DNA of 64,000 nucleotides from OCS155 cluster bacterium AG-349-E07 (GTDB taxonomy: Bacteria; Actinomycetota; Acidimicrobiia; Actinomarinales; Actinomarinaceae), in the NCBI GenBank assembly GCA_003281085.1, contig QCCZ01000001.1, positions 27,493-91,492 on the forward strand, given 5' to 3'. The notes beneath the pieces are model-generated. The model was not told the origin of the DNA and did not search any database. It saw only the letters and a list, made by a program, of their open reading frames with translations. Below, piece after piece: positions 6,806 to 27,568 of the stretch. A program made the translations under genes and the position numbers. Position 1 is the stretch's first letter. Every line of letters begins with the position of its first letter.

Positions 6806-7818
6806 TATGAGCTCATCTCCACAAAAATCTCGTCGTCACTATTTTCTATATACAGTTCGATTAAATTTCTTACGTTCTCTGAATACAGCTTTGTAGCTGC
6901 ATGCTTAACAGTGTTTAAGATATCTGTTTCACCAACTATCTTTACACCATTAATCTCAACAACTTTGTCTACCTCTGTTCCTTCACAGTTTCCACCTGTA
7001 CCAGCAGCTAAGTCAATAATCACAGAATTCTCTTTCATGTTTTCAACAGTTGACTTTTCAATCAGGACAGGTGCTTTCTTTCCTGGTATTTGAGCAAATG
7101 TTAAAACAATATCGCTTTCAATTAATTGTTTTTTTAATGCTTCTTGAATTTTCTGATTCTCTTCTTCTGAAACTTCTTGTGCGTATACGCTATCTTGAGC
7201 TTCAGTACTAGCTTCAACAAATTTAGCACCTAAAGACTCCACTTGGTCCTTGGCTTCTTTTCTAATATCAAAAGCCCATACTCTAGCCCCAAGTCTTTTT
7301 GCAGTTGCAATTGCTTGAAGGCCTGCAACTCCTACACCAAGAATTAATACTTTTGATGGCTGTATATTTCCTGCTGCAGTTGTCATCATTGGCACTACAT
7401 CTGATGTCTCTTTTGCTGCTCGTAAAACTGAGGCGTAACCAAGCAAGTTTGCTTGAGAAGAAAGAGCATCAAGGTTTTGAGCTCTGGAAATTCTAGGAAG
7501 CTTAAAAAAACTTAATATCTTAATATCTGGCCTTAAGTTTTTAATCTCTTCAATTTTTTCAAAATCAAATATACCGATTAGGATTGCTCCTTCCTTAAGA
7601 TCTTTAATTTTTTTATCTTCAATGTTTTCTACACAAGCAACAATGTCTAAATCACTTACTTTAGAAATAGTTTTAACATTATTTTGAATAGATTCTGAAT
7701 ACTTTAGATAATCAAATATATCTTTTTCTAAATGTACATCTAATGAATATTTTTCAATTGATTCAGGATGTATTGGGGCCCTGTAGCCGTTTTTATCAGT
7801 TAAAAATCCTATTTTCAT
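6805..7818 (-). CDS. pntAA: NAD(P) transhydrogenase subunit alpha, part 1 (dI, NAD(H)-binding)
   Basis: Alanine-dehydrogenase/PNT fold with the Rossmann motif VLILGVGVAGLQAIATAKRLGA. Contiguous with pntAB. Confidence 0.9.
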   Translation of the reverse strand: MKIGFLTDKNGYRAPIHPESIEKYSLDVHLEKDIFDYLKYSESIQNNVKTISKVSDLDIVACVENIEDKKIKDLKEGAILIGIFDFEKIEEIKNLRPDIKILSFFKLPRISRAQNLDALSSQANLLGYASVLRAAKETSDVVPMMTTAAGNIQPSKVLILGVGVAGLQAIATAKRLGARVWAFDIRKEAKDQVESLGAKFVEASTEAQDSVYAQEVSEEENQKIQEALKKQLIESDIVLTFAQIPGKKAPVLIEKSTVENMKENSVIIDLAAGTGGNCEGTEVDKVVEINGVKIVGETDILNTVKHAATKLYSENVRNLIELYIENSDDEIFVEMSS

Positions 7819-7841
7819 ACATTGTTATTTTAAATGTTCTC

Positions 7842-8084
7842 TTACGCTACTAAGAATTTTTCTAACTCTGCTGCAGCTGTAAGGAGGTTTAAATCACTGT
7901 TTTCAATACAATACAATTCTTCTTTGTAAGAAATAGCTAAATAATCAAACCTATTAATGAATATCTGCACATCTTCAAAGATTATGTTCGTAGAAAAGTA
8001 GATTTTTCCTTCTCTAATTAAAACTTCGTTTATGAAAGAATGATGAGAGAGATAACCCAATAGTTTTTCAAGAACATCTGACAT
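7842..8084 (-). CDS. Hypothetical protein (80 aa)
   Basis: ORF directly upstream of the pnt operon on the same strand. No motif recognised. Confidence 0.35.
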   Translation of the reverse strand: MSDVLEKLLGYLSHHSFINEVLIREGKIYFSTNIIFEDVQIFINRFDYLAISYKEELYCIENSDLNLLTAAAELEKFLVA

Positions 8085-18615: not shown

Positions 18616-18984
18616 CTAACTATCTTGATTGTCCATTTCAAGTTGTTCTTGTTCAAAACGATTTAATGCTAATAGAAACATTACAAACAATATTGAAGAT
18701 CCGATTAAAAAAGTTATAGGAAGAATTCTTATTTCAAATGCATTTAGTCCATCAATTGAAGCCGGTGCTGGACCTCTTGGTGCGTAAAGAATAAAAAATA
18801 TTGAGTTGATTACGCCCCAACCAAATATTGCTGCTCCAGTAATTAAAAAACCTAGTCTTTTTCCCAGGTTTGTGGCATTTAATAAAAATGTGGAACCAGC
18901 AAACACAATTAGAGAACCTATAAACATTATGATTCCTGTAACTAACAGGTTAGACGAGAGAAGAGATCTCATTATTTCACGCAT
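18616..18984 (-). CDS. Hypothetical four-TM membrane protein, last gene of the Rieske/cytochrome b operon
   Basis: 122 aa. The start overlaps the cytochrome c stop by 8 nt (ATGCGTGA), implying co-translation with the complex. Confidence 0.55.
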   Translation of the reverse strand: MREIMRSLLSSNLLVTGIIMFIGSLIVFAGSTFLLNATNLGKRLGFLITGAAIFGWGVINSIFFILYAPRGPAPASIDGLNAFEIRILPITFLIGSSILFVMFLLALNRFEQEQLEMDNQDS

Positions 18985-20401
18985 CAGGTTCCATTCCTCT
19001 CAAATAGTCAATAATTAATTCTATATCTGATTGAGGAAGAACAGCACCAAAACCTGGCATTTTTCCTCCTCCTACACCATTAACTCCGTATGCTTTTCCG
19101 TTTACAGAACCTTTGATAATGAAGTCAATAAAGTCTTCCCTTTGCTTAAACTGAATATTTACTCTTCCTGCTCTTAGCGCAGGTCCCAATCCACCTGAAG
19201 CAATCTCTTTTGTGTATGCTACACCAGCTGAATAACCAGCGGTGTGACATCTTGCACAGTATGCATTGAATAATCCAACTGCTCTTTTAGCCTTTTCGAC
19301 ATCACCTTCGAAAGTTGAGTCTGCAATTTCATCAAATGAAACTTCCCACAACTTCTCTTCAAGAGCTTTTTCTAAGAAAGCAAGACCAGTCTCTGCCTCA
19401 TTTAAAAACTTGTCATATCCCTCTGAAATTATTGTAATGTTGATAAGTTCTGATTCTAATTGTGATAAAAATCCATTTGCCACTGACTTATCTTTTCTTC
19501 CCGGAATAGACTCTTCATTATCTGGATCAAGATTCAATATTGACGTACCAAGTATTTCATTTACATTTGCACTATATGTTGATATATCTACTTCTACCGA
19601 GTCGCTTAGACCATCTTCGTCTGTATCTATCCCACCTTCTTTAGAGAGTAAAGCAGAAATATCTTCAACAGCTTTTTGTACAACTGGCAATTTTGTTGGA
19701 GAGTCTTTTACGCTTTGGATTAATTCTTTTTGTCTCGCAATTTCATTTTCTACAAGTAACTCAGAAGTTTCAAGACGTAATAATGAACTATTAATGTTTG
19801 CATCTATCGTCGCCAATTCTTCATTCTGTGGAATTTGGAAATGGTGCATATATTCAATTAAGTCATCTAACTGGCCGTCATTCATTGGTCCTCCGCCTTC
19901 AAGACCCCATGCGGGCATAGGTGAGTTGGCACGGCCATAAATTAACCAATATCTTACTTCATCATCATCGTATCTAAAAAATACATTATTTATTGCTGGT
20001 GCTTCCCAGGTAACGCTAATTCCACTTCTTTTTTCTACATAAGAAGCTGCGCCACCAGAACCATCTACACCATGACAGTTTCCACACCCAAACTCTTCAT
20101 AAAGGTGTTCTCCACGCTCAACAGAGACTTCATCAAATTCAACAACAAATTCTTGTTGTCTATTTTGTTCTCCTAAGTAATAAAGTGGAATCATTATTGT
20201 CAAAAGAGATGCAAGGAGAACAGCAACAGTTAGTGTTCTATCTAACGTTTTTGTTTCAAGTTCATCATCATTTCTATATTTTGATAAATTAGGGGCTATA
20301 TCTTTAGCTTTGCCAGAACCCCTGAAACCAGCTGAAACAAAAAATGCGAGGCCCCCAATGATACCTAGTGCAATTAATGTAATGAAAAGAGAACTAGACA
20401 A
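18977..20401 (-). CDS. Membrane-anchored diheme cytochrome c (QcrC-like) with a long inter-heme insertion
   Basis: Two CxxCH motifs (CGNCH near residue 106, CARCH near residue 382) and N-terminal TM helices. Residues about 190-365 form a helical, acidic insert containing DTDEDGLSD. Confidence 0.85.
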   Translation of the reverse strand: MSSSLFITLIALGIIGGLAFFVSAGFRGSGKAKDIAPNLSKYRNDDELETKTLDRTLTVAVLLASLLTIMIPLYYLGEQNRQQEFVVEFDEVSVERGEHLYEEFGCGNCHGVDGSGGAASYVEKRSGISVTWEAPAINNVFFRYDDDEVRYWLIYGRANSPMPAWGLEGGGPMNDGQLDDLIEYMHHFQIPQNEELATIDANINSSLLRLETSELLVENEIARQKELIQSVKDSPTKLPVVQKAVEDISALLSKEGGIDTDEDGLSDSVEVDISTYSANVNEILGTSILNLDPDNEESIPGRKDKSVANGFLSQLESELINITIISEGYDKFLNEAETGLAFLEKALEEKLWEVSFDEIADSTFEGDVEKAKRAVGLFNAYCARCHTAGYSAGVAYTKEIASGGLGPALRAGRVNIQFKQREDFIDFIIKGSVNGKAYGVNGVGGGKMPGFGAVLPQSDIELIIDYLRGMEPDA

Positions 20402-20404
20402 CTT

Positions 20405-21268
20405 TTATTCCTCCGTTGTTAATGCAATACAAGAAAGACCTTGTGGGTACTTGACTGACATCCCAGGTGCTCTTGGAGATTCAATTATAGTTCCAGTATC
20501 AATAATTAATCTTCCAGATACATTTGCTACGTTGAATCTATCTAAATTTCTTGGAGCTGGACCAGCAAAATATTCACCAACCATATTATATTTTGATCCA
20601 TGACAAGGACATTCAAATCCTTGAGATGAGTTACACCATGGAACTCTGCATCCGAGATGAACGCATCTTTGATAAACAGCCACTAATCCATCTGTAACAG
20701 TTGAACCTGAGGCAAACTGAGAATTAGCTGCTGCAGATTCACTAAGTGGAAGAATATATGCTCTAGCTGCAGGAATAAATGCAGGTATAACAGAACCATC
20801 TGCTTGAAATATTTGGTTTTTTATTTCTTCAATTGATCCAGCATCAATTTTGGAACCAAAACCACCTGAGACTTTTGGCCATATAAAACCTAGATAAGAG
20901 ATAAGTTGTATGCCTGCAAAAGCACCAAATGAAATTCTTAGAGCTTTAGTTAAAAACTGTCTTCGGTTTATACCTATTTCTTCTTCAGATAGCTCCTCAT
21001 ATATTTCTTTTTCTTCTAATTTAACAGTACCGTCAGATGGAACTTCTTGCTCTTGTTCTTCATCAATAATGGTTTCTGTCTCACCTTTTGGTAATTCTGG
21101 CTCGAGAAAATTTGTTGCTGATTTATCTTCTTTTAGTGCTTTCTTTTCAACGTTTTTTTTCCAATTGAGATTTTTAGGACCTCGTCCTGTGACAATCACT
21201 ACAATTCCAATAATTCCTAATAACCCAACTAAAGCAAACCCTGCAAACGATAACTCAACTAAGGTCAT
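20405..21268 (-). CDS. Rieske [2Fe-2S] subunit
   Basis: CVHLGC...CPCHGS Rieske boxes. An N-terminal TM helix and an acidic linker precede an internal Tat-like motif (NRRQFLTKAL). Confidence 0.9.
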   Translation of the reverse strand: MTLVELSFAGFALVGLLGIIGIVVIVTGRGPKNLNWKKNVEKKALKEDKSATNFLEPELPKGETETIIDEEQEQEVPSDGTVKLEEKEIYEELSEEEIGINRRQFLTKALRISFGAFAGIQLISYLGFIWPKVSGGFGSKIDAGSIEEIKNQIFQADGSVIPAFIPAARAYILPLSESAAANSQFASGSTVTDGLVAVYQRCVHLGCRVPWCNSSQGFECPCHGSKYNMVGEYFAGPAPRNLDRFNVANVSGRLIIDTGTIIESPRAPGMSVKYPQGLSCIALTTEE

Positions 21269-22044
21269 TCGAAGTGTATCCAGTCAAGCAAATCATCAAA
21301 CCATATTCCATCAATCCATGGATACGTCCAGTTCCATCCTGGTCCTCTGAAAAGCACACCAATAATGGTCAAAACTCCGGCACCCGCTAAGAAAAAGGTA
21401 TAAAACATAATTGCAAATTTTCTTTTAGAAGGATGAGTTTCTGGATTTCTATCAATATAAGGAAAGGCCATCCAAAGTACTACGCCTAAGACTAGTGGAA
21501 TCATAACACCTGCTATTTGTGGATCCCAATAAGATAATAATTCTTGCAATCCCAAAAAGTACCAAGGAGCTTTTGCTGGGTTAGGTGTAACGTTTGGGTT
21601 GGCTTCTTCAAGCAAAGGTGCTTGTAATATTGCTGATAATAATATTAAGAATGCTGTCATTGCCATAAGAGAAACAAACTCTGGAAGCATTAGGTGTGGC
21701 CAGGTATTTACTTTATCAACTGGTTCAGCTACTGGCTTCTGAATTGGTTTAGCTTTTACAACCGTAAGAAGTCGTTGGGTTACTTTTACCTCAGGCGCAA
21801 AATCTACTTCTTCGGGTGTGTCAGTCTTTGAGGCTGCAGGTGCAGGTGTTTCAGCAGCAGGTGCAGGTGTTTCAGCAGCAGGTGCAGGTGTTTCATCAAT
21901 AACTTTTACTTCTGGTTCTTTGGCAACAACTGTTGGCTCTGTTTCACCTTTCATTTCAGCTAACGCTTGCTCAACACTAATTCCTAGTGCTTTAGCTCTT
22001 GCTTCTGCGGATCTAATTAATAAATGTTCTGGGATATCTACCAT
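21265..22044 (-). CDS. Cytochrome b C-terminal part (subunit IV-like) with N-terminal module and Pro/Ala repeat linker
   Basis: Three TM helices and a Qo-site PEWY-equivalent (KAPWYFLGLQELL). About 100 extra N-terminal residues carry RSAEARAKALGISVE plus (ETPAPAA)x3. ATGA overlap with the Rieske gene. Confidence 0.8.
   Translation of the reverse strand: MVDIPEHLLIRSAEARAKALGISVEQALAEMKGETEPTVVAKEPEVKVIDETPAPAAETPAPAAETPAPAASKTDTPEEVDFAPEVKVTQRLLTVVKAKPIQKPVAEPVDKVNTWPHLMLPEFVSLMAMTAFLILLSAILQAPLLEEANPNVTPNPAKAPWYFLGLQELLSYWDPQIAGVMIPLVLGVVLWMAFPYIDRNPETHPSKRKFAIMFYTFFLAGAGVLTIIGVLFRGPGWNWTYPWIDGIWFDDLLDWIHFE
21836..21895. repeat. In-frame tandem repeat, 21-bp unit x about 2.9 (encodes ETPAPAA repeats on the minus strand)
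   Basis: GCAGGTGCAGGTGTTTCAGCA is repeated at 21836, 21857 and 21878 (the last copy is partial). Confidence 0.9.
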
Positions 22045-22053
22045 AATTGTTTC

Positions 22054-22827
22054 CTATAACGGTCCTGAGATTCCGCCATCTTTACGAACTCTCCAAAAAT
22101 GAACAGCCATAAAAATAACAATGATAAATGGTAAAAAGAGCACGTGTAGTACATAAAACCTTAATAATGTTGCAGTTGTAGCTTCAAGACCGGCGAAGAG
22201 ACCGAATTTAGCTTGCGCACCGATAACAGGCGTGTAGCCAGCCATATTACCTCCTACTGTCACAGCCCATATTGCTAATTGATCCCACGGTAATAGATAT
22301 CCTGTAAATGAAAGTAGTAAAGTTAGGAGCAAAAGAATAACTCCTATAACCCAGTTAAATTCTCTAGGTGCTTTATATGCGCCATGATAAAAAACTCGTG
22401 ACATGTGAAGAAAAACTACTAGAACCATCAAGTGTGCTCCCCAACGATGCATGTTCCTAACTAACGAACCAAATGCAATACTTGTTTGTAGGTTTTGTAT
22501 GTCTACATAAGCAAGTTCAGTTGGACGAAAATAAAACATCAACCAGATACCAGTAATAGTTAAAACAATAAATAAGAAGAAGCTCAATCCACCTAAGCAT
22601 AATGTGTAAGATAGGCGTACTCCGTGCCTCTTTACTTTTACAGGATGTAAGTGATACAAAACATTGTTCATAACAACATATGATCTATTTCTAGGACTAT
22701 CTACATACCCTTTTCTGAATGGTGAACCAGGACGGAAAATACTAGACATTAATTTTCCGCCTCTAAAGCTATCAGCAGCACTGATTCTTGCTTCTTTAAT
22801 CTTGTCTCTTAAAGATAATTTCTGCAT
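22054..22827 (-). CDS. Cytochrome b6-type subunit (four-helix N-terminal half of cytochrome b)
   Basis: His pairs have b6 spacing (HRWGAHLMVLVVFLH, HVLFLPFIIVIFMAVH). Also PREFNW, TGYLLPWDQ and a b6-like C-terminal end RKDGGISGPL. CLGG conserves the Cys that binds heme ci in b6f and Firmicute complexes. Confidence 0.9.
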   Translation of the reverse strand: MQKLSLRDKIKEARISAADSFRGGKLMSSIFRPGSPFRKGYVDSPRNRSYVVMNNVLYHLHPVKVKRHGVRLSYTLCLGGLSFFLFIVLTITGIWLMFYFRPTELAYVDIQNLQTSIAFGSLVRNMHRWGAHLMVLVVFLHMSRVFYHGAYKAPREFNWVIGVILLLLTLLLSFTGYLLPWDQLAIWAVTVGGNMAGYTPVIGAQAKFGLFAGLEATTATLLRFYVLHVLFLPFIIVIFMAVHFWRVRKDGGISGPL

Positions 22828-22836
22828 TATGTAATT

Positions 22837-23283
22837 TTAAAGCCTTCCATATATATATCCATGTCTGTCACTTCTTTGACCAGAATCTTCATCCCATGGA
22901 GCTTGGTAGATGCCATTTTCAACTGCTTGGTCTGCTAGAGATCCTGCAAACTTTCCAAGTGAAATAACTCCAGTAGGACACCTATCTACACAAAGTGCAC
23001 ATCTTGTACAAGCGTCCTCATCAACAACAAAAAAACCAGGTTCCTCTGAAGCATCAGGAGACTCTACATTTATTGAATCTTCAATAGCGTCTACAGACAA
23101 ATAATGAATACACTTCCATGGACAAATATCTACACATCCTTCACATAGAATGCACTCAGATTCATCTATATGTAAAAACTGTTTTGGTCTAACTCGGGAA
23201 GCCACTTTTTCTGCTTCAACCATTGCTAGATTGTATTTTTTTTCAAACTCTGGCATCTCTATAAGAACTTCTGATTTAGGCAT
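22837..23283 (-). CDS. 2x[4Fe-4S] ferredoxin-domain protein encoded inside the cytochrome b operon
   Basis: CILCEGCVDICP and CTRCALCVDRCP clusters. The ORF track extends to 23352, but the ATG at 23283 overlaps the upstream stop by 8 nt (ATGCCTAA) and is the more likely start. Confidence 0.8.
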   Translation of the reverse strand: MPKSEVLIEMPEFEKKYNLAMVEAEKVASRVRPKQFLHIDESECILCEGCVDICPWKCIHYLSVDAIEDSINVESPDASEEPGFFVVDEDACTRCALCVDRCPTGVISLGKFAGSLADQAVENGIYQAPWDEDSGQRSDRHGYIYGRL

Positions 23284-23869
23284 CTTGTTCCACCCTAACA
23301 ACCTCTTTTCCATAGTCGGAAATTCTAGATTTTGATTTTTCAACTTTATCATTTATATCTTGAATCAGATAAGCAACTACTAAGCCTGCTATTAAAAAGT
23401 TTGTAGAAATACCTAACTGAATTAAATCTTTAAGTGCAGCAAAACTTAACCCAATTTCATTGTTCAAGAATAATATTGGTGGGAATTGAATAAACTCTCT
23501 TTGACCAGTCCATTCAAGAGGACCCTGAGATAAGTTAAGCCATTCTGAAGGTACAATACCCAACAAAATAGACATTTCGATCCAAGTAAGGAAAGCAAAA
23601 TAAGTAGCTTTAGCCCAAGTTAATTCTTTGTCATTCCAGACAATCAAGACAAGACCCAGTAGTAAAAGCTGACTTGCACCAAAAGCAATTAGCTGACCTA
23701 TTGTTTGTGGTAACCAGCCTCTAGGAATCCAATTAAAATAATCAATAACTTCGCCTTTTGGAAATCCTGCAAAGTGTGCGATGATAACTCCAATTGTCAT
23801 CCCTCCTATACCAGAGACAATTGAAATTAAACCTATTCTGTATCTAAATTTATAAATTGTATAAATCAA
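23276..23869 (-). CDS. Hypothetical polytopic membrane protein, first gene of the Rieske/cytochrome b operon
   Basis: 197 aa with about five TM helices. Translationally coupled to the ferredoxin gene. No motif recognised. Confidence 0.55.
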   Translation of the reverse strand: MIYTIYKFRYRIGLISIVSGIGGMTIGVIIAHFAGFPKGEVIDYFNWIPRGWLPQTIGQLIAFGASQLLLLGLVLIVWNDKELTWAKATYFAFLTWIEMSILLGIVPSEWLNLSQGPLEWTGQREFIQFPPILFLNNEIGLSFAALKDLIQLGISTNFLIAGLVVAYLIQDINDKVEKSKSRISDYGKEVVRVEQDA

Positions 23870-24014
23870 ATTTCCTCAAACCTTACCTATATATTTTATC
23901 CTAAGATTGGAAAAAAATATAAATTGATTTCAATATCTTTTTCAAACATTTATCTTATAACGAGAAACATTTTTGAATATAATAGTAAAGTCAAAATGAA
24001 TAATAGCTAGGCTT

Positions 24015-25406
24015 ATGAAATTAAAATTGATTCCAAAAAACGAACAGGAGCTTTCAAAACTTTTTGTTCTAATTTTTCCATTAACCCTTTTGTTGTCATC
24101 ATCTACATCTTTTCTCAGAGATGCTTACTTTACATTTGCTAACTTAATCCCAAATAACAAAATTTTTAACTATGGATTTCTAGACACACTTTACAATCAA
24201 GCAACCTATGGCCTGCTTTTTGCTACATGCGTCTGCTTATCTTTCACTTATTTATTTTCAAAATCTCTTGGAAGAATTGCAGTACTTTTTCCGCTTTTGT
24301 TTCTGACATTATTAGGTCTTGTTGGTACAGAATTTTTAGACCTTCTTTTCAGCTTTTTTTATCAAGATAGAATTAATTTAACAGGAAATAGTTCGTTACT
24401 AATTATTCTAAAAATACTTGTTGGCTTTGGATTGTTTGGCCTAGCTTCATTAAATTTATTAGCTAAAAAAGAAAGTTCAATTTTTGCAAGTGCTCAGTTC
24501 ATATATGGTGCAATAGTTTTTTATTTTATTTCACTAATTGTATCTCGTTCAGAATTAGTTGTATTTACTGATTCTTTGATGATTGCTTCGCTCCATAATT
24601 CAACACATATATATGTGGGTGTATCATTTGTTTTTCTTGCTATTGTTCATTTTTTAATGACGAAACCTTTAGGGGCAACTCTTTTTAATAAAACGCTTAC
24701 AGCAATTACATTTTGGGGTTTCTTGTTTCTGCTTCCATGGACAAACTTTAAGTATTACTTTGGATCTATAATTCCCAATTGGCTTGAGAATGTATCTATC
24801 TATCTTTCACTAAGTTTATTAATTCCTCTTCTTGCATTTTCAGTAAATTATGTAAAAACAATACAGACAAAAGAAGATGAGGGTAATAAGTCATCTGGTT
24901 TAATGAGCTTTTCCGTTATTTTATTTTTAATTACTAATTTACTTCACATTATTTCTAGCTTTGAAAACATACTTCCATTAGTTGGACTGACTAATTTTCA
25001 ATATGTAATAAATCAGGGATATATTGGATCTTTAATTTTTGCTACAATTTCATTTGTCTATTATCTCATTCCCAAGCTTTTTGGAAGGTCAGTCAGATAT
25101 TCAAGACTTGAGGATTTAATCTTTTCCGGGTTTAAGTTTTTATATCCAGCTCTACTAATTAACAATTTTCTTATTGGAGTAAATTCTGGATATTCTTGGA
25201 ATGCTGGAGCAAATGCTGGAAGTCCCACAATCTACGGTGAAGGGTTCAGTATATTATGGAGTGTTGTAAGTATTAACTACTCTGCTAATACTTTTATTTC
25301 ACTTTTGCTAATGACGTTATCGTTTTTATTCTTTATTTCAGTCGTAAGATCAATTAGTTCTGGTGATGTAACAACAGTTGAAGAAATGGTTTTTAGCAGT
25401 GAGTGA
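24015..25406 (+). CDS. CcoN-like (C-family heme-copper oxidase subunit I-like) polytopic protein lacking most canonical metal-ligand histidines
   Basis: 463 aa with 12 or more TM helices. Segments align by eye to CcoN: LYNQATYGLLFA (cf. LHTNAVIFAF), LHNS (cf. GHNA), ITFWGF (cf. VHFWAL), WTNFKYY (cf. GPHHLHY), INQGY (cf. GHVHA), YYLIPKLFGR (cf. YHLVPKVFGR). The whole protein has only 4 His. Confidence 0.55.
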   Translation: MKLKLIPKNEQELSKLFVLIFPLTLLLSSSTSFLRDAYFTFANLIPNNKIFNYGFLDTLYNQATYGLLFATCVCLSFTYLFSKSLGRIAVLFPLLFLTLLGLVGTEFLDLLFSFFYQDRINLTGNSSLLIILKILVGFGLFGLASLNLLAKKESSIFASAQFIYGAIVFYFISLIVSRSELVVFTDSLMIASLHNSTHIYVGVSFVFLAIVHFLMTKPLGATLFNKTLTAITFWGFLFLLPWTNFKYYFGSIIPNWLENVSIYLSLSLLIPLLAFSVNYVKTIQTKEDEGNKSSGLMSFSVILFLITNLLHIISSFENILPLVGLTNFQYVINQGYIGSLIFATISFVYYLIPKLFGRSVRYSRLEDLIFSGFKFLYPALLINNFLIGVNSGYSWNAGANAGSPTIYGEGFSILWSVVSINYSANTFISLLLMTLSFLFFISVVRSISSGDVTTVEEMVFSSE

Positions 25407-26199
25407 TTTAGTAAATAAAGTAGCTGAATTATTAAACGCACCAGTTGACCTTGTGCAGAGATCAGCAGAGGCACGAGCACAGGCGTCTGGCGTCTCTGTT
25501 GACGATGTATTAAATTCATGGGCTGGTGGAGAGAGTGTTGCTGCAAGTTCAGCACCTGCACCGAAAGAAGAAGCCCCTGTTGAAGAAGTAAAAGAGGAAG
25601 CTCCTGTTGAAGAACTTGAGGATAATGTAGAGGAAACAACTGAAGTAGAAGTTGTCGAAGAAAAAGAAGCTCAAGACGTTATTGAGGAAGTTGTTGAGGA
25701 AGTTGTTGAGTTAAAAAATGAGAGTTCATTGGCGTTTATCAGTGGCGTCTTGTTAATTGGAATATTTACTTTTATCTTTGCCTTTGTAATTCCAAAGAAT
25801 CAATCAATAAGCGCAGTTGAAAGCTCTCTAAACAATTCAGTAAGTATAACTAGTGAAGTATTGAGAGGGGCAGAGATATATGGTGAACTAAATTGTCAAT
25901 CGTGTCACACTCAAAACGTAAGAACTTTAATTCCTGATACTCAAAATGGTAAAGTTCTCAAAAACAAATACGCAAATGCAGCACTTATTAAAAATGTAGG
26001 TACTATTCGCTTGGGACCCGATCTCTCAACAAATGGTACAAGAGAACCAACTAATAATTCCCAATGGCTAAAAAGATATCTAACTGACTCCTCTTCTGTA
26101 AATAGGGATATTCCACACCCAAACTATGGATTTCTAGACGACAATGATTTGGAGTACCTCGTAACCTATTTACTATCATTAGGAGAAGTAAATGAGTGA
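25399..26199 (+). CDS. CcoO-like membrane-anchored monoheme cytochrome c with N-terminal repeat module
   Basis: Likely GTG start at 25399 (GTGAGTGA overlap with the upstream stop; the ORF track starts at TTG 25378). GAEIYGELNCQSCHTQNVR, RLGPDLS, WLKRYL and LVTYLLSL follow the FixO/CcoO pattern. One TM helix. Confidence 0.7.
   Translation: MSDLVNKVAELLNAPVDLVQRSAEARAQASGVSVDDVLNSWAGGESVAASSAPAPKEEAPVEEVKEEAPVEELEDNVEETTEVEVVEEKEAQDVIEEVVEEVVELKNESSLAFISGVLLIGIFTFIFAFVIPKNQSISAVESSLNNSVSITSEVLRGAEIYGELNCQSCHTQNVRTLIPDTQNGKVLKNKYANAALIKNVGTIRLGPDLSTNGTREPTNNSQWLKRYLTDSSSVNRDIPHPNYGFLDDNDLEYLVTYLLSLGEVNE
25400..25614 (+). repeat. Direct repeat copy 1 (215 bp, identical to 26193..26407)
   Basis: Base-by-base comparison of the two stretches shows no mismatch. 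Offset is 793 bp. It covers the upstream stop, the start codon and the first 70 or so codons. Confidence 0.95.
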
Positions 26200-27133
26200 T
26201 TTAGTAAATAAAGTAGCTGAATTATTAAACGCACCAGTTGACCTTGTGCAGAGATCAGCAGAGGCACGAGCACAGGCGTCTGGCGTCTCTGTTGACGATG
26301 TATTAAATTCATGGGCTGGTGGAGAGAGTGTTGCTGCAAGTTCAGCACCTGCACCGAAAGAAGAAGCCCCTGTTGAAGAAGTAAAAGAGGAAGCTCCTGT
26401 TGAAGAAGTAAAAGAGGAAGCTCCTGTTGAAGAAGTAAAAGAAGAAGCCCCTGTTGCAGCTTCTGTATCAACTAAACAAGTTAAAAAATCTGTTTCATTT
26501 ATTAATGAGACTATGTCTATCAAAACAAACTCAGATACGATTTTGCCTAAGTGGCTAAACTTTAGTTTTGTAATTATTCCATTATTTATACTTATTGGTC
26601 TTATTAGTTCCTCAAATACACAAGAGTGTGGCGAAAGAGGAATGCTAGACGTAGATAGAAAATCCCAACAGGCTGTTAATTGTGATGGATCACCTTACGA
26701 AGGAAGGGGCGTTGCTGCTACAAATACAATCAATTACATAGCAGTAGGTCAAGAAGTTTATGCAGGAGCAGGTGCTTGTGCTGGCTGTCATGGTGGAGGT
26801 GGAGGTGGAGGTGTTGGACCTGCATTTACCGGCGGTGCTTTATATACAACATTCCCAACATGCGCTGATCATGCAAAGTGGATACAACTAGGTTCTGCAG
26901 GATGGCAGGCTGAGGTTGGTCCTACATACGGAGCTGAAAATACTGTCTCGATTGGTGGTATGCCTGGTTTTCAAGGAAAACTCACTGAAGATGAAATTTA
27001 CGCAGTTGTAGTATTCGAGAGAGTTGTTTTTGGTGGTGGAGATACCGAAGAAGTGTTAATAGATTGTGGATTGCTAGAGACTGAAGAAGAGGAAGAAGAA
27101 GTAACTACAGAGGCAGTTAGTACTTCTCCTTAA
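26192..27133 (+). CDS. Membrane-anchored monoheme class I cytochrome c with N-terminal repeat module and acidic tail
   Basis: CAGCH heme motif followed by a Gly run. GGMPGF supplies a candidate Met ligand. One TM helix and a C-terminal ETEEEEEEV tail. ATGAGTGA overlap with the upstream stop. Confidence 0.8.
   Translation: MSDLVNKVAELLNAPVDLVQRSAEARAQASGVSVDDVLNSWAGGESVAASSAPAPKEEAPVEEVKEEAPVEEVKEEAPVEEVKEEAPVAASVSTKQVKKSVSFINETMSIKTNSDTILPKWLNFSFVIIPLFILIGLISSSNTQECGERGMLDVDRKSQQAVNCDGSPYEGRGVAATNTINYIAVGQEVYAGAGACAGCHGGGGGGGVGPAFTGGALYTTFPTCADHAKWIQLGSAGWQAEVGPTYGAENTVSIGGMPGFQGKLTEDEIYAVVVFERVVFGGGDTEEVLIDCGLLETEEEEEEVTTEAVSTSP
26193..26407 (+). repeat. Direct repeat copy 2 (215 bp, identical to 25400..25614)
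   Basis: See copy 1. Identity ends where copy 2 continues with additional 27-bp units. Confidence 0.95.
26363..26455 (+). repeat. In-frame tandem repeat, 27-bp unit x about 3.4 (EAPVEEVKE)
   Basis: Units start at 26363, 26390 and 26417, with a partial unit at 26444. Copy 1 of the module (25570-25614) has only about 1.7 units. Confidence 0.9.
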
Positions 27134-27568
27134 ATGAAAAAGTTTTCCATTTTTGATAAAAAGTCCTTACTTTATATTTTTGCTTTTTTCGATGGTCTTT
27201 CTGTAGCTGCTGGAGCCCTATTTGGTTTCTTTTTTCCAAAATTACTATCTGATGTTTTTGGAGCAAATTTTCAAACTAATGACTTGATCTGGTTTAAATT
27301 TGTACTTCTTCCTGGAATTGCAATAAATGTCCTATATATGTACTTTGCTATAACAAAAAGTAGAACCTTAATTCTTTTATCAAATATATTAAGGACATTA
27401 ACAACTGTGGGTTTCTTTTTGATGTGGGGAGAGGCGGTAGTACTGAGATCTTTGCTTAACCTTATGATTATTCATCATATCGTTGCAATATCATTAACAT
27501 TTTTTTTATATTTTAGAAAAGTAGATAACAAGAATATAGATATTTCAACTGAAAGAAAAGATCTTTAA
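27134..27568 (+). CDS. Hypothetical four-TM membrane protein, last gene of the CcoN-like operon
   Basis: The ATG immediately follows the cytochrome c stop (TAAATG). 144 aa, hydrophobic. Confidence 0.5.
   Translation: MKKFSIFDKKSLLYIFAFFDGLSVAAGALFGFFFPKLLSDVFGANFQTNDLIWFKFVLLPGIAINVLYMYFAITKSRTLILLSNILRTLTTVGFFLMWGEAVVLRSLLNLMIIHHIVAISLTFFLYFRKVDNKNIDISTERKDL

What the first reader, a model, noticed from the sequence alone, without database searches (positions are those of the whole stretch)
24015..26199. CcoN-like protein that appears to have lost five of the six heme/CuB histidine ligands, coupled to a CcoO-like cytochrome c
The 463-aa polytopic product aligns by eye block-for-block with cbb3 oxidase subunit CcoN, from the helix II region through YYLIPKLFGR. 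Only the first CuB histidine position (LHNS versus GHNA) keeps a His. The other ligand positions read Y (LYNQ versus LHTN), NF (WTNFKYY versus GPHHLHY) and N..G (INQGY versus GHVHA). The entire protein has only four histidines, so a canonical two-heme plus CuB site is impossible. It is nevertheless intact, and it is translationally coupled (GTGAGTGA) to a CcoO-like monoheme cytochrome c, followed by another cytochrome c and a 4-TM protein. In the CcoO-like protein the usual S-x-M-P-x-Y axial-Met block reads IPHPNY. This looks like a repurposed oxidase scaffold: a pseudo-oxidase, ion channel, scaffold or electron-transfer module. I am not aware of a description of such a system.
Basis: partly seen in the sequence, partly recalled or inferred. 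Interest (0 to 1): 0.8.

Follow-up and report, generated by a model that had tools for sequence, protein, structure and literature searches.

The report
Cofactor-less cbb3 oxidase look-alike operon
A marine actinobacterium (Candidatus Actinomarina) keeps, under purifying selection, a full-length copy of the catalytic subunit of a cbb3-type oxygen reductase that has lost the residues needed to hold its two hemes and copper; databases label this protein and its many relatives as working oxidases.

Summary
The ORF at 24015-25406 (+) encodes a 463-aa, 12-helix protein. Its predicted structure superposes on CcoN of cbb3 oxidases (TM-score 0.88), and profile comparison gives 98.8% probability of homology. 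The heme and CuB ligand positions read Y60, L240, K246 and Y247, and the helix-X HxH tripeptide is deleted. One CuB-type His (H194 or H198, depending on the aligner) remains but is not conserved in orthologues.

The gene is not decaying. All 28 Actinomarinales orthologues are intact, and dN/dS is 0.04-0.09. It overlaps by 8 nt (GTGAGTGA) a FixO/CcoO-like monoheme cytochrome c, which overlaps (ATGAGTGA) a CcoP-like monoheme cytochrome c. The operon sits back-to-back with a Rieske/cytochrome b6 complex operon. This layout is conserved in every genome examined, including a 60%-GC Acidimicrobiia MAG.

The loss is ancient and widespread. Of 67 full-length cluster representatives, 54 lack both the HH and HxH motifs. 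All examined members keep a heme-c FixO partner and are annotated as "cbb3-type cytochrome c oxidase subunit I".

My best explanation is inferred, not shown: a pseudo-oxidase that serves as a membrane scaffold for anchored c-type cytochromes working with complex III. I found no published description. I rate it a new variant of a known kind, with interest about 0.7.

The parts
24015..25406 (+). CcoN-like pseudo-oxidase subunit (463 aa, 12 TM helices) without heme or CuB ligands
   Evidence: The fold matches CcoN at TM-score 0.88. Ligand positions read Y60, H198 (or H194), L240, K246 and Y247, with the HxH tripeptide deleted. dN/dS is 0.04-0.09.
25399..26199 (+). FixO/CcoO-like membrane-anchored monoheme cytochrome c. 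It has an N-terminal cytoplasmic module, an acidic linker, one TM helix and a heme domain (CQSCH). The axial Met is replaced by His (IPHPNY).
   Evidence: Pfam FixO scores 38.7 bits against a gathering score of 29.6. CQSCH and IPHP[NS]Y occur in all Actinomarinales orthologues. The GTG start overlaps the upstream stop.
26192..27133 (+). CcoP-like membrane-anchored monoheme cytochrome c (313 aa; CAGCH, GGMPGF) carrying the same N-terminal module
   Evidence: Pfam Cytochrome_CBB3 and Cytochrom_C hits. The motifs are conserved in all orthologues. One TM helix is predicted at residues 122-140. The ATGAGTGA overlap with the upstream gene is shown.
27134..27568 (+). 144-aa multi-TM protein, the last gene of the operon. 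It matches no family and was not detected in the deeper Actinomarinales loci L024-L026 or in L029.
25400..25614 (+). Copy 1 of a perfect 215-nt direct repeat. It encodes the shared N-terminal module plus the start of the acidic linker.
   Evidence: Concerted evolution across genomes is shown.
26193..26407 (+). Copy 2 of the perfect 215-nt direct repeat
23870..24014 (.). 145-bp AT-rich divergent intergenic region between the two operons. It presumably holds promoters for both; this is not shown.
   Evidence: The promoter scan was no better than shuffled sequence.
23276..23869 (-). 197-aa 4-TM protein, the first gene of the Rieske/cytochrome b operon. It carries the conserved motif PSEWLNLxQGPLxWTxQ and matches no known family.
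22837..23352 (-). 2x[4Fe-4S] ferredoxin-type subunit
22054..22827 (-). Cytochrome b6-type subunit
   Evidence: Pfam Cytochrome_B, E 3e-43. NF040969 scores 289 bits.
21265..22044 (-). Subunit IV-like (cytochrome b C-terminal) protein carrying the same N-terminal module (LLIRSAEARAKALGISVEQA)
20405..21268 (-). Rieske iron-sulfur subunit
18977..20401 (-). Diheme cytochrome c (CGNCH, CARCH)
18616..18984 (-). 122-aa membrane protein, the last gene of the Rieske/cytochrome b operon. It is strongly conserved even in the 60%-GC relative.

Best explanation
**Shown.** The gene encodes a pseudo-enzyme: a full-length CcoN-fold membrane protein that cannot bind heme b, heme b3 or CuB. It is kept intact by purifying selection. 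It is co-translated with two membrane-anchored monoheme c-type cytochromes, one CcoO-like and one CcoP-like. This is an ancient cbb3-type operon (N-O-P order) whose catalytic core was emptied.

**Inferred mechanism.** The emptied 12-helix subunit serves as a membrane scaffold. In real cbb3 oxidase, CcoN holds the single TM helices and the periplasmic heme domains of CcoO and CcoP, and I propose the same here. The resulting fixed cytochrome c module would work with the neighbouring Rieske/cytochrome b6/diheme-c complex, probably as part of one supercomplex. It would pass electrons from the quinol oxidase side onward to a real terminal oxidase encoded elsewhere. Oxygen is not reduced by this protein.
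For: **Fold kept, ligands lost.**
- The model matches CcoN at TM-score 0.88 and hhalign gives 98.8% probability, yet no ligand His is conserved.
- The residues conserved across the His-less family are the structural G, P, W, N278, T282 and T326 that canonical CcoN also conserves.
- The helices that carry ligands in real oxidases (TM2, 6, 10) are no better conserved than average. TM7-8 and periplasmic loop 11-12 are the most conserved segments.

**Selection.**
- dN/dS is 0.04-0.09, and all 28 orthologues are intact.

**The partner keeps its cofactor.**
- Every context examined has a FixO-like gene with CxxCH directly downstream.

**Link to complex III.**
- The operon is divergent from a complete Rieske/cytochrome b6 operon in all Actinomarinales loci long enough to show it and in the Acidimicrobiia MAG locus L029.
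- A roughly 45-aa N-terminal module (..L..RSAEARA.A.G.SV..VL..) occurs only on subunit IV of the b complex, the CcoO-like protein and the CcoP-like protein. It is conserved in L029.
- In an unrelated lineage, a partly degenerate CcoN-FixO-cytochrome c set directly follows ActF of Alternative Complex III.

**Ecology.**
- Ca. Actinomarina is sharply inhibited by hypoxia (PMC11754627). This fits the absence of a working high-affinity cbb3 oxidase.
Against: - No physical interaction was tested or modelled. No multimer prediction was available.
- In three other lineages (L032, L033, L034) the N-O pair is not next to a complex III operon.
- The His-for-Met change in the Actinomarinales CcoO-like heme would, from general heme c chemistry, lower its potential. 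That is awkward for a relay toward a high-potential oxidase.
- I could not confirm that Actinomarina has an aa3-type oxidase elsewhere. None lies in the 64-kb window or within 10 kb of the gene in relatives.
- The CcoN-like gene evolves faster than every bc subunit, so constraint on it is weaker.
Confidence: 0.5

Rival explanations
1. Repurposed conduit. The emptied 12-helix bundle acts as an ion or proton channel, or a small-molecule transporter. The attached heme c domain would then work as a redox sensor or gate rather than as a relay.
For: - Polar residues inside helices are conserved across the family: N278 and T282 in TM8, T326, and S159.
- The family has its own conserved cytoplasmic C-terminal tail, R..TSG....E..V.
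- In some lineages the operon sits next to complex I or a Crp/FNR regulator instead of complex III.
Against: - The same polar residues are conserved in canonical CcoN, so they need not mark a new function.
- I know of no precedent for transport by a heme-copper oxidase fold without redox chemistry.
- The partner cytochromes are always retained.
Confidence: 0.15
2. Assembly or stability factor. The protein is needed only for maturation, membrane insertion or stabilisation of the Rieske/cytochrome b6 complex or of the c-type cytochromes. It is not part of the working electron path.
For: - The layout is divergent and co-conserved with the bc operon.
- Three subunits from the two operons share an N-terminal module.
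- The gene is next to cytochrome c maturation genes in L032 and L033.
Against: - Tight translational coupling by 8-nt overlaps suggests a fixed-stoichiometry structural complex rather than a catalytic chaperone.
- A 12-TM protein is a costly assembly factor for a genome of about 1 Mb.
Confidence: 0.15
3. Electron entry or exit module for another partner. The two anchored cytochromes c, held by the scaffold, would exchange electrons with a periplasmic or extracellular donor or acceptor, not with the terminal oxidase.
For: - The bis-His-type ligation predicted for the Actinomarinales CcoO-like heme would suit a lower-potential partner.
- Some Acidimicrobiia are iron oxidisers (general knowledge).
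Against: - No candidate partner gene lies in the conserved neighbourhood.
- Relatives outside Actinomarinales keep the Met ligand.
Confidence: 0.1
4. Still a redox enzyme. Hemes or metals would be bound through non-histidine ligands.
For: - The fold is complete and confidently predicted.
- H212 and H311 are invariant within the close Actinomarina group.
Against: - H212 and H311 are lost in deeper low-GC relatives (P0121, P0124) and in high-GC relatives.
- No His, Met, Cys, Lys or Tyr column is conserved across the family.
- The HxH tripeptide is physically deleted.
Confidence: 0.04
5. A decaying pseudogene remnant of a cbb3 operon.
For: - It is the fastest-evolving gene of the cluster: 52-70% identity where cytochrome b6 keeps 87-98%.
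Against: - All 28 orthologues are intact, with no frameshifts.
- dN/dS is 0.04-0.09.
- Length and synteny are conserved from 32%-GC to 60%-GC genomes.
- Hundreds of near-full-length metagenomic copies exist.
Confidence: 0.02

Closest known systems
cbb3-type cytochrome c oxidase CcoNOQP (Pseudomonas stutzeri 3MK7/5DJQ; P. aeruginosa 8SMR)
   Same: - The subunit I fold has 12 TM helices and matches at TM-score 0.88.
- The gene order is N, O, then a P-like cytochrome c.
- CcoO-like carries one heme c on a single TM anchor.
- Conserved structural motifs are shared, including FW in TM7, PxW, N..xT in TM8 and YY..PK.FGR.
   Different: - No heme b or b3 His ligands, no HH CuB pair, and no cross-linked Tyr. 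The HxH tripeptide is deleted.
- It scores 37 bits against the 583-bit TIGR00780 cut-off.
- The P-like subunit is monoheme.
- No CcoQ was recognised.
- The c-type subunits carry extra cytoplasmic N-terminal modules.
- The axial Met of CcoO is His in Actinomarinales.
cNOR (NorBC) and the newer NOR families of the heme-copper superfamily (Murali et al. 2024, PMC11214002)
   Same: - It belongs to the C-family branch by fold, with NorB at TM-score 0.78-0.80.
- A catalytic-type subunit is paired with a monoheme cytochrome c subunit.
- Like all NORs, it lacks the active-site Tyr.
   Different: - All NOR families keep both heme ligands and at least two of the three active-site His.
- gNOR is described as the first case of replacing even one of them. 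Here all are gone.
Cofactor-less accessory subunits within the superfamily (subunit II of E. coli bo3 and of gNOR without CuA; the qNOR N-terminal domain without heme c)
   Same: - A redox cofactor site is lost while the fold is kept as a structural element (PMC11214002).
   Different: - Those losses affect accessory domains, and the enzyme stays active. Here the catalytic subunit itself is emptied.
Actinobacterial bcc-aa3 and proteobacterial bc1-cbb3 supercomplexes (7QHM, 8OVC, 6XKW, 8SMR)
   Same: - A quinol:cytochrome c oxidoreductase with a diheme c is genetically and, in those cases, physically coupled to a heme-copper oxidase-fold complex.
- Anchored c hemes bridge the two.
   Different: - Here the complex III is a split b6 plus subunit IV type with a ferredoxin-like subunit.
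- Its oxidase-fold neighbour cannot reduce oxygen.
- Physical association is not shown.

Membership tests
Heme-copper oxidoreductase superfamily (subunit I fold) | 12-TM subunit I core fold | tested here: met
   The AF2 model has pLDDT 85 and pTM 0.89. Foldseek matches CcoN at TM-score 0.88, NorB at 0.78-0.80, and A and B family subunits at 0.6-0.76. hhalign gives 98.8% probability.
Heme-copper oxidoreductase superfamily (subunit I fold) | Two His ligands for the low-spin heme (helix II and helix X) and one for the high-spin heme (helix X) | tested here: not met
   The helix II ligand aligns to Y60. HxH falls in a 3-residue deletion. No His is conserved in these columns in the family.
Heme-copper oxidoreductase superfamily (subunit I fold) | Three His ligands for CuB or FeB (helix VI His and the helix VII HH pair) | tested here: not met
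   The HH pair aligns to K246 and Y247. The helix VI position holds H198 or H194 in this sequence but is not conserved in orthologues or relatives.
cbb3-type cytochrome c oxidase subunit I (CcoN, TIGR00780; Pfam COX1) | Score above the curated family cut-off | tested here: not met
   TIGR00780 scores 36.8 bits against a 583.15-bit cut-off. PF00115 scores 24.4 bits against 34.8. L029 scores 166 bits and the Cobetia-type protein 295 bits, also below cut-off.
cbb3-type cytochrome c oxidase subunit I (CcoN, TIGR00780; Pfam COX1) | Cross-linked active-site Tyr on helix VII | tested here: not met
   It aligns to L240.
cbb3-type cytochrome c oxidase subunit I (CcoN, TIGR00780; Pfam COX1) | Operon with ccoO and ccoP-type cytochrome c genes | tested here: met
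   FixO-like and cytochrome c genes follow with 8-nt overlaps. The P-like protein is monoheme and gave no FixP_N Pfam hit.
cbb3-type cytochrome c oxidase subunit I (CcoN, TIGR00780; Pfam COX1) | Oxygen reductase activity | not testable with these tools
   It is excluded only by inference from the missing ligands.
FixO/CcoO (PF02433) | Profile score above the gathering threshold, a single CxxCH, and an N-terminal TM anchor | tested here: met
   It scores 38.7 bits against 29.6. CQSCH is present. One TM helix is predicted at residues 113-131.
FixO/CcoO (PF02433) | Axial Met in the S-x-M-P-x-Y block | tested here: not met
   The block reads IPHP[NS]Y in all Actinomarinales orthologues recovered to that block. 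Met is kept in L029 and L031-L034.
Pseudogene | Frameshifts or stops in relatives, or dN/dS near 1 | tested here: not met
   All 28 orthologues are intact. dN/dS is 0.04-0.09.

The most novel reading that the evidence does not exclude
A cofactor-free heme-copper-oxidase subunit is the obligatory structural core of a previously unrecognised respiratory module. It would work either as an adaptor that builds a complex III-cytochrome c supercomplex in Acidimicrobiia (and, with Alternative Complex III, in other phyla), or as a redox-gated ion conduit. Either way, catalytic subunits of oxidases could be recycled as pure architecture and kept for very long evolutionary times. If so, 'cbb3 oxidase' calls for Acidimicrobiia, and for any other lineage carrying ligand-less CcoN homologues, would be wrong.
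Probability: 0.35. Interest if true: 0.85.

Novelty: new variant of a known kind. Interest (0 to 1): 0.72.

Why it matters
1. **It contradicts a stated rule.** The 2024 survey of the heme-copper superfamily says the active-site histidines are completely conserved in all families but one (PMC11214002). Here a large, diverse branch has none, and selection still maintains it.

2. **The annotation is wrong, with consequences.** NCBI and JGI name these proteins 'cbb3-type cytochrome c oxidase subunit I'. Metagenome studies read such calls as capacity for high-affinity, microaerobic respiration. One example reports cbb3 in actinobacterial MAGs in a paper that discusses Acidimicrobiia (PMC8357290); I did not verify those sequences or their class. 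Ca. Actinomarina is one of the most abundant marine actinobacteria and is in fact sharply inhibited by hypoxia.

3. **It offers a natural experiment.** It shows what the oxidase scaffold does apart from catalysis. It may also reveal how the unusual split-b6 complex III of Acidimicrobiia hands electrons on.

4. **A cultured organism is available.** Cobetia sp. L2A1 (WP_158772588.1) carries a similarly ligand-poor CcoN, so experiments are possible.

Tried and rejected
- **Pseudogene reading.** Rejected by intact orthologues and low dN/dS.
- **Streamlining or heme-auxotrophy adaptation of Actinomarina.** Actinomarinales are listed among putative heme auxotrophs. I rejected this as the cause because 60%-GC Acidimicrobiia share the ligand loss and the same synteny.
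- **H212 and H311 as a new metal site.** They are invariant in the close group but lost in P0121, P0124 and all high-GC relatives.
- **Canonical oxidase nearby.** Motif scans and Pfam over the 64-kb window found none. The 559-aa ORF I suspected lies in a sugar-modification island.
- **Promoter and terminator scan of the operon.** No enrichment over shuffled sequence: 16 sites found against 16.8 expected.
- **Accessory membrane proteins.** Pfam and NCBIfam (all three proteins) and a PDB sequence search (197-aa protein only) returned nothing for the 197-, 144- and 122-aa proteins.
- **ACIII genes in L031.** NCBIfam did not recognise them. A PDB search then identified ActF at E 1e-64.
- **Literature.** Searches for 'CcoN-like', for ccoN with Actinobacteria and ligands, and for heme-copper with missing histidine found no description of such a family. 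The Actinomarinales genome paper does not discuss cytochromes.
- **Phylogeny.** The NJ tree is crude (BLOSUM distances, midpoint root). I use it only as a hint that ligand loss may have happened more than once.
Full report
**Source and layout.** The window comes from Candidatus Actinomarina (Actinomarinales, Acidimicrobiia). GC content is about 32%. A single-cell genome contig encodes a 98% identical protein, and the 28 related genome loci are nearly all titled Actinomarina or Acidimicrobiia. Four tightly packed genes lie on the + strand:
- a 463-aa polytopic protein at 24015-25406;
- a cytochrome c ending at 26199;
- a second cytochrome c at 26192-27133;
- a 144-aa multi-TM protein at 27134-27568.

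The first junction reads GTGAGTGA and the second ATGAGTGA. In each, the start codon overlaps the upstream stop by 8 nt. The last junction is TAAATG. The mechanical ORF list starts the second gene at TTG 25378. GTG 25399 is the better start, because it sits at the base equivalent to the ATG of the next gene within a perfect 215-nt repeat.

**Homology of the 463-aa protein.**
- Sequence profiles detect CcoN weakly but significantly: TIGR00780 E 2e-9 and Pfam COX1 E 1.6e-5. Both are far below the curated cut-offs.
- phmmer against PDB CcoN chains gives E about 1e-7 over residues 194-403.
- A profile of nine family members against eight canonical CcoN sequences gives hhalign probability 98.8%, E 1.3e-16, over 407 columns.
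- An AlphaFold2 model built on a 21-sequence alignment has pLDDT 85, pTM 0.89 and 12 long helices.
- Foldseek puts CcoN of cbb3 oxidases first (TM-score 0.88, E about 1e-12). NorB follows at 0.78-0.80, then A and B family subunits at 0.6-0.76.

The fold assignment is therefore secure, and the C family is the nearest branch.

**Ligand positions.** In the hhalign alignment:
- the helix II heme b ligand aligns with Y60;
- the cross-linked Tyr aligns with L240;
- the CuB HH pair aligns with K246 and Y247;
- the helix X HxH, which ligates heme b3 and heme b, falls in a three-residue deletion between N333 and Q334.

The helix VI CuB His aligns with H198 by hhalign and with H194 by phmmer. The protein has four His in all: 194, 198, 212 and 311. 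Within the family H194 is mostly Y or F. H198 is L in one close relative and Q in a distant one. Across the wider family no His column is conserved. It is, if anything, understated: functionally none of the six ligands survives.

**Not a pseudogene.**
- All 28 Actinomarinales orthologues are uninterrupted ORFs with two to four His. Those cut by contig ends are intact as far as they go.
- Hundreds of 463-aa copies occur in marine metagenomes, including Tara.
- Nei-Gojobori dN/dS against seven relatives is 0.04-0.09.
- This is higher than for the neighbouring respiratory genes (0.00-0.06) but is clear purifying selection.
- It is nevertheless the fastest-evolving gene of the cluster: 52-70% identity where cytochrome b6 keeps 87-98%.
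- Across 24 orthologues, the helices that carry ligands in real oxidases (TM2, 6, 10) are no better conserved than average.
- TM7, TM8, periplasmic loop 11-12 and cytoplasmic loop 4-5 are the most conserved segments.

**Partner subunits.** The second gene passes the Pfam FixO gathering score (38.7 against 29.6 bits). It has CQSCH and one TM helix. It aligns to CcoO chains with IPHPNY opposite the axial-Met block. Every Actinomarinales orthologue recovered to that block has His there. The high-GC relative and four other lineages keep Met. The third gene is a single-TM monoheme cytochrome c (CAGCH, GGMPGF). It occupies the CcoP position in the operon.

**Genomic context.** Divergently transcribed from a 145-bp AT-rich spacer lies a complete Rieske/cytochrome b operon. 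In order it encodes a 197-aa membrane protein, a 2x[4Fe-4S] ferredoxin, cytochrome b6, subunit IV, Rieske, a diheme cytochrome c and a 122-aa membrane protein. This two-operon layout is identical in every Actinomarinales locus long enough to show it. It is also identical in a 60%-GC MAG, locus L029 from GCA_024641305.1. That protein's cluster includes a 479-aa sequence (MBK5266846.1) that NCBI assigns to an Acidimicrobiia bacterium.

A further link joins the two operons. A module of about 45 aa (..L..RSAEARA.A.G.SV..VL..) forms the cytoplasmic N-terminus of exactly three proteins: subunit IV, the CcoO-like protein and the CcoP-like protein. This holds across the Acidimicrobiia-type loci and L029.

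**Breadth of the family.** A profile search of 1.8 billion cluster representatives returned 150 hits. I aligned the 66 full-length hits with the window protein:
- 42 have no His at any of the six ligand columns, 15 have some, and 10 are canonical;
- with a tolerance of four columns, 54 lack both HH and HxH, and 37 have no His near any ligand position.

The residues conserved in the His-less set are the structural G, P, W, N and T residues that canonical CcoN also keeps. The one family-specific feature I saw is a C-terminal tail, R..TSG....E..V.

Contexts were checked in five further lineages, and each keeps a FixO-like gene with CxxCH directly downstream:
- the Acidimicrobiia locus L029, with the Rieske/b6 cluster;
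- two loci beside complex I genes, each with cytochrome c maturation genes upstream;
- a sequence whose cluster includes a protein of the cultured gammaproteobacterium Cobetia sp. L2A1, followed by a Crp/FNR regulator;
- a partly degenerate form that directly follows ActF of Alternative Complex III, matching 6F0K_F at E 1e-64.

A crude NJ tree places the Actinomarina and high-GC sequences in one all-His-less clade. The Cobetia type sits beside canonical CcoN, which hints at more than one loss. That tree is not strong evidence.

**Interpretation.** The following points are shown:
- this is a cbb3-type operon whose catalytic subunit has lost its cofactor sites;
- it keeps its fold and its heme-c partners;
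- it is maintained by selection;
- the state is ancient.

The following is inferred. The emptied subunit acts as a membrane scaffold for the anchored cytochromes c, as CcoN does for CcoO and CcoP in real cbb3 oxidases. The module would then work with the adjacent complex III, probably in a supercomplex, passing electrons on to a real oxidase encoded elsewhere.

Evidence for this reading:
- the invariant N-O pairing;
- the conserved back-to-back arrangement with complex III genes;
- the shared N-terminal module;
- the independent association of a degenerate CcoN with ACIII.

Points that weaken it:
- no interaction test was possible;
- three lineages show no complex III adjacency;
- the His-for-Met heme ligand in Actinomarinales would lower the potential;
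- I could not confirm an aa3 oxidase in the rest of the genome, and none lies in the window or flanks.

Rival readings are a channel or transporter, an assembly factor, an alternative electron port, a non-His metalloenzyme and a pseudogene. Each is scored in its own section. The last two are effectively excluded.

**Comparison with the literature.**
- Murali et al. [quoted passage not shown]
- Khalfaoui-Hassani et al. 2018 state that Actinobacteria are known to lack cbb3 oxidase (PMC5829832).
- NCBI and JGI nevertheless name these proteins cbb3-type cytochrome c oxidase subunit I.
- A MAG study reports cbb3 oxidases in actinobacterial MAGs, in a paper that discusses Acidimicrobiia (PMC8357290). 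I did not check those sequences or their class.
- Ca. [quoted passage not shown] This fits the absence of a working high-affinity oxidase but is circumstantial.
- Targeted searches found no description of a ligand-less CcoN family. Subscription literature was not searchable, so prior mention cannot be excluded.

**Verdict.** The feature is real. The function is unproven. [quoted passage not shown] It has practical consequences for annotation and offers a clear experimental route.

Noticed in passing
window 25400-25614 and 26193-26407: A perfect 215-nt direct repeat covers the 5' ends of the two adjacent cytochrome c genes, including the overlapping stop of each upstream gene. In 13 of 18 related genomes the two copies are 99-100% identical within a genome, but they differ by 9-36% between genomes. 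This indicates ongoing gene conversion, not an assembly artefact.
   Followed up: yes
window 21900-22044 (-), 25399-25540 (+), 26192-26330 (+); L029 at about 7500-7890 (-, two copies), from about 11450 (+), from about 12240 (+): A module of about 45 aa (P..L[VI].RSAEARA.A.G.SV..VL..W) forms the cytoplasmic N-terminus of subunit IV, the CcoO-like protein and the CcoP-like protein only. It has no significant Pfam match; the best is DUF1805 at E 0.06. It occurs twice in the high-GC subunit IV. Its partner and function are unknown.
   Followed up: partly
window 26357-26461 and 25564-25614; subunit IV gene at about 21800-21880: Tandem 27-nt repeats encode KEEAPVEEV in the linkers of the cytochromes c, and ETPAPAA x3 occurs in subunit IV. 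Linker lengths differ between strains (subunit IV alignments span 259-323 aa). Some MAGs show split ORFs there, for example L006 and L016, probably from assembly errors in the repeats.
   Followed up: partly
window 26110-26130 (CcoO-like residue His in IPHPNY): The axial Met of the CcoO-type heme c is replaced by His in all Actinomarinales. Met is kept in the high-GC Acidimicrobiia relative and in four other lineages. This is a lineage-specific switch to probable bis-His ligation.
   Followed up: yes
L016 (JBJKYB010000001.1) and L022 (CBFIBF010000028.1): Two MAG contigs titled 'Gammaproteobacteria bacterium' carry the Actinomarina-type cluster with 70% and 56% identical CcoN-like genes. L016 has the full synteny; the 8.5-kb L022 contig carries only the oxidase-like operon and part of tm197. 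The taxonomy is probably mislabelled, or the bins are contaminated.
   Followed up: no
L034 (Logan SRR20019841 contig); cluster member WP_158772588.1 of Cobetia sp. L2A1: A cultured gammaproteobacterium has a CcoN homologue much closer to canonical CcoN (295 bits to TIGR00780). It lacks the HH pair and the helix X HxH. It is followed by a FixO-like gene, a 90-aa ORF and a Crp/FNR regulator. This may be an independent loss and gives an experimentally tractable case.
   Followed up: partly
L031 433-5430: An ActE-like cytochrome c, ActF (E 1e-64 to 6F0K_F) and a 127-aa protein are directly followed by a CcoN homologue that keeps three of the six His. That homologue ends in a Cys-rich tail (CCASCCG). 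FixO and another cytochrome c come next. This is a partly degenerate oxidase-like set attached to Alternative Complex III.
   Followed up: partly
protein P0011 (661 aa, NCBI/metaclust): One database entry fuses the CcoN-like and FixO-like genes into a single ORF (Pfam COX1 plus FixO). A one-base difference at the 8-nt overlap would produce this. It may be a sequencing error or a real fusion.
   Followed up: no
window 23276-23352: The ferredoxin ORF as listed overlaps the upstream 197-aa gene by 77 nt. The high-GC orthologue is 149 aa, so the true ferredoxin start is probably a downstream ATG.
   Followed up: no
window about 40000-64000: GC content drops to 25-29%. The region holds glycosyltransferases, GDP-mannose dehydratase, epimerases, an aminotransferase, methyltransferases and several ORFs with no family. 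It looks like a cell-envelope glycosylation island of the kind described as flexible in streamlined marine genomes.
   Followed up: partly
window 18616-18984 (-) and 23276-23869 (-): Two membrane proteins with no family match bracket the Rieske/cytochrome b operon. Both are strongly conserved between 32%-GC and 60%-GC genomes. The 197-aa protein carries the motif PSEWLNLxQGPLxWTxQ. They are probably uncharacterised subunits of this complex III type.
   Followed up: partly
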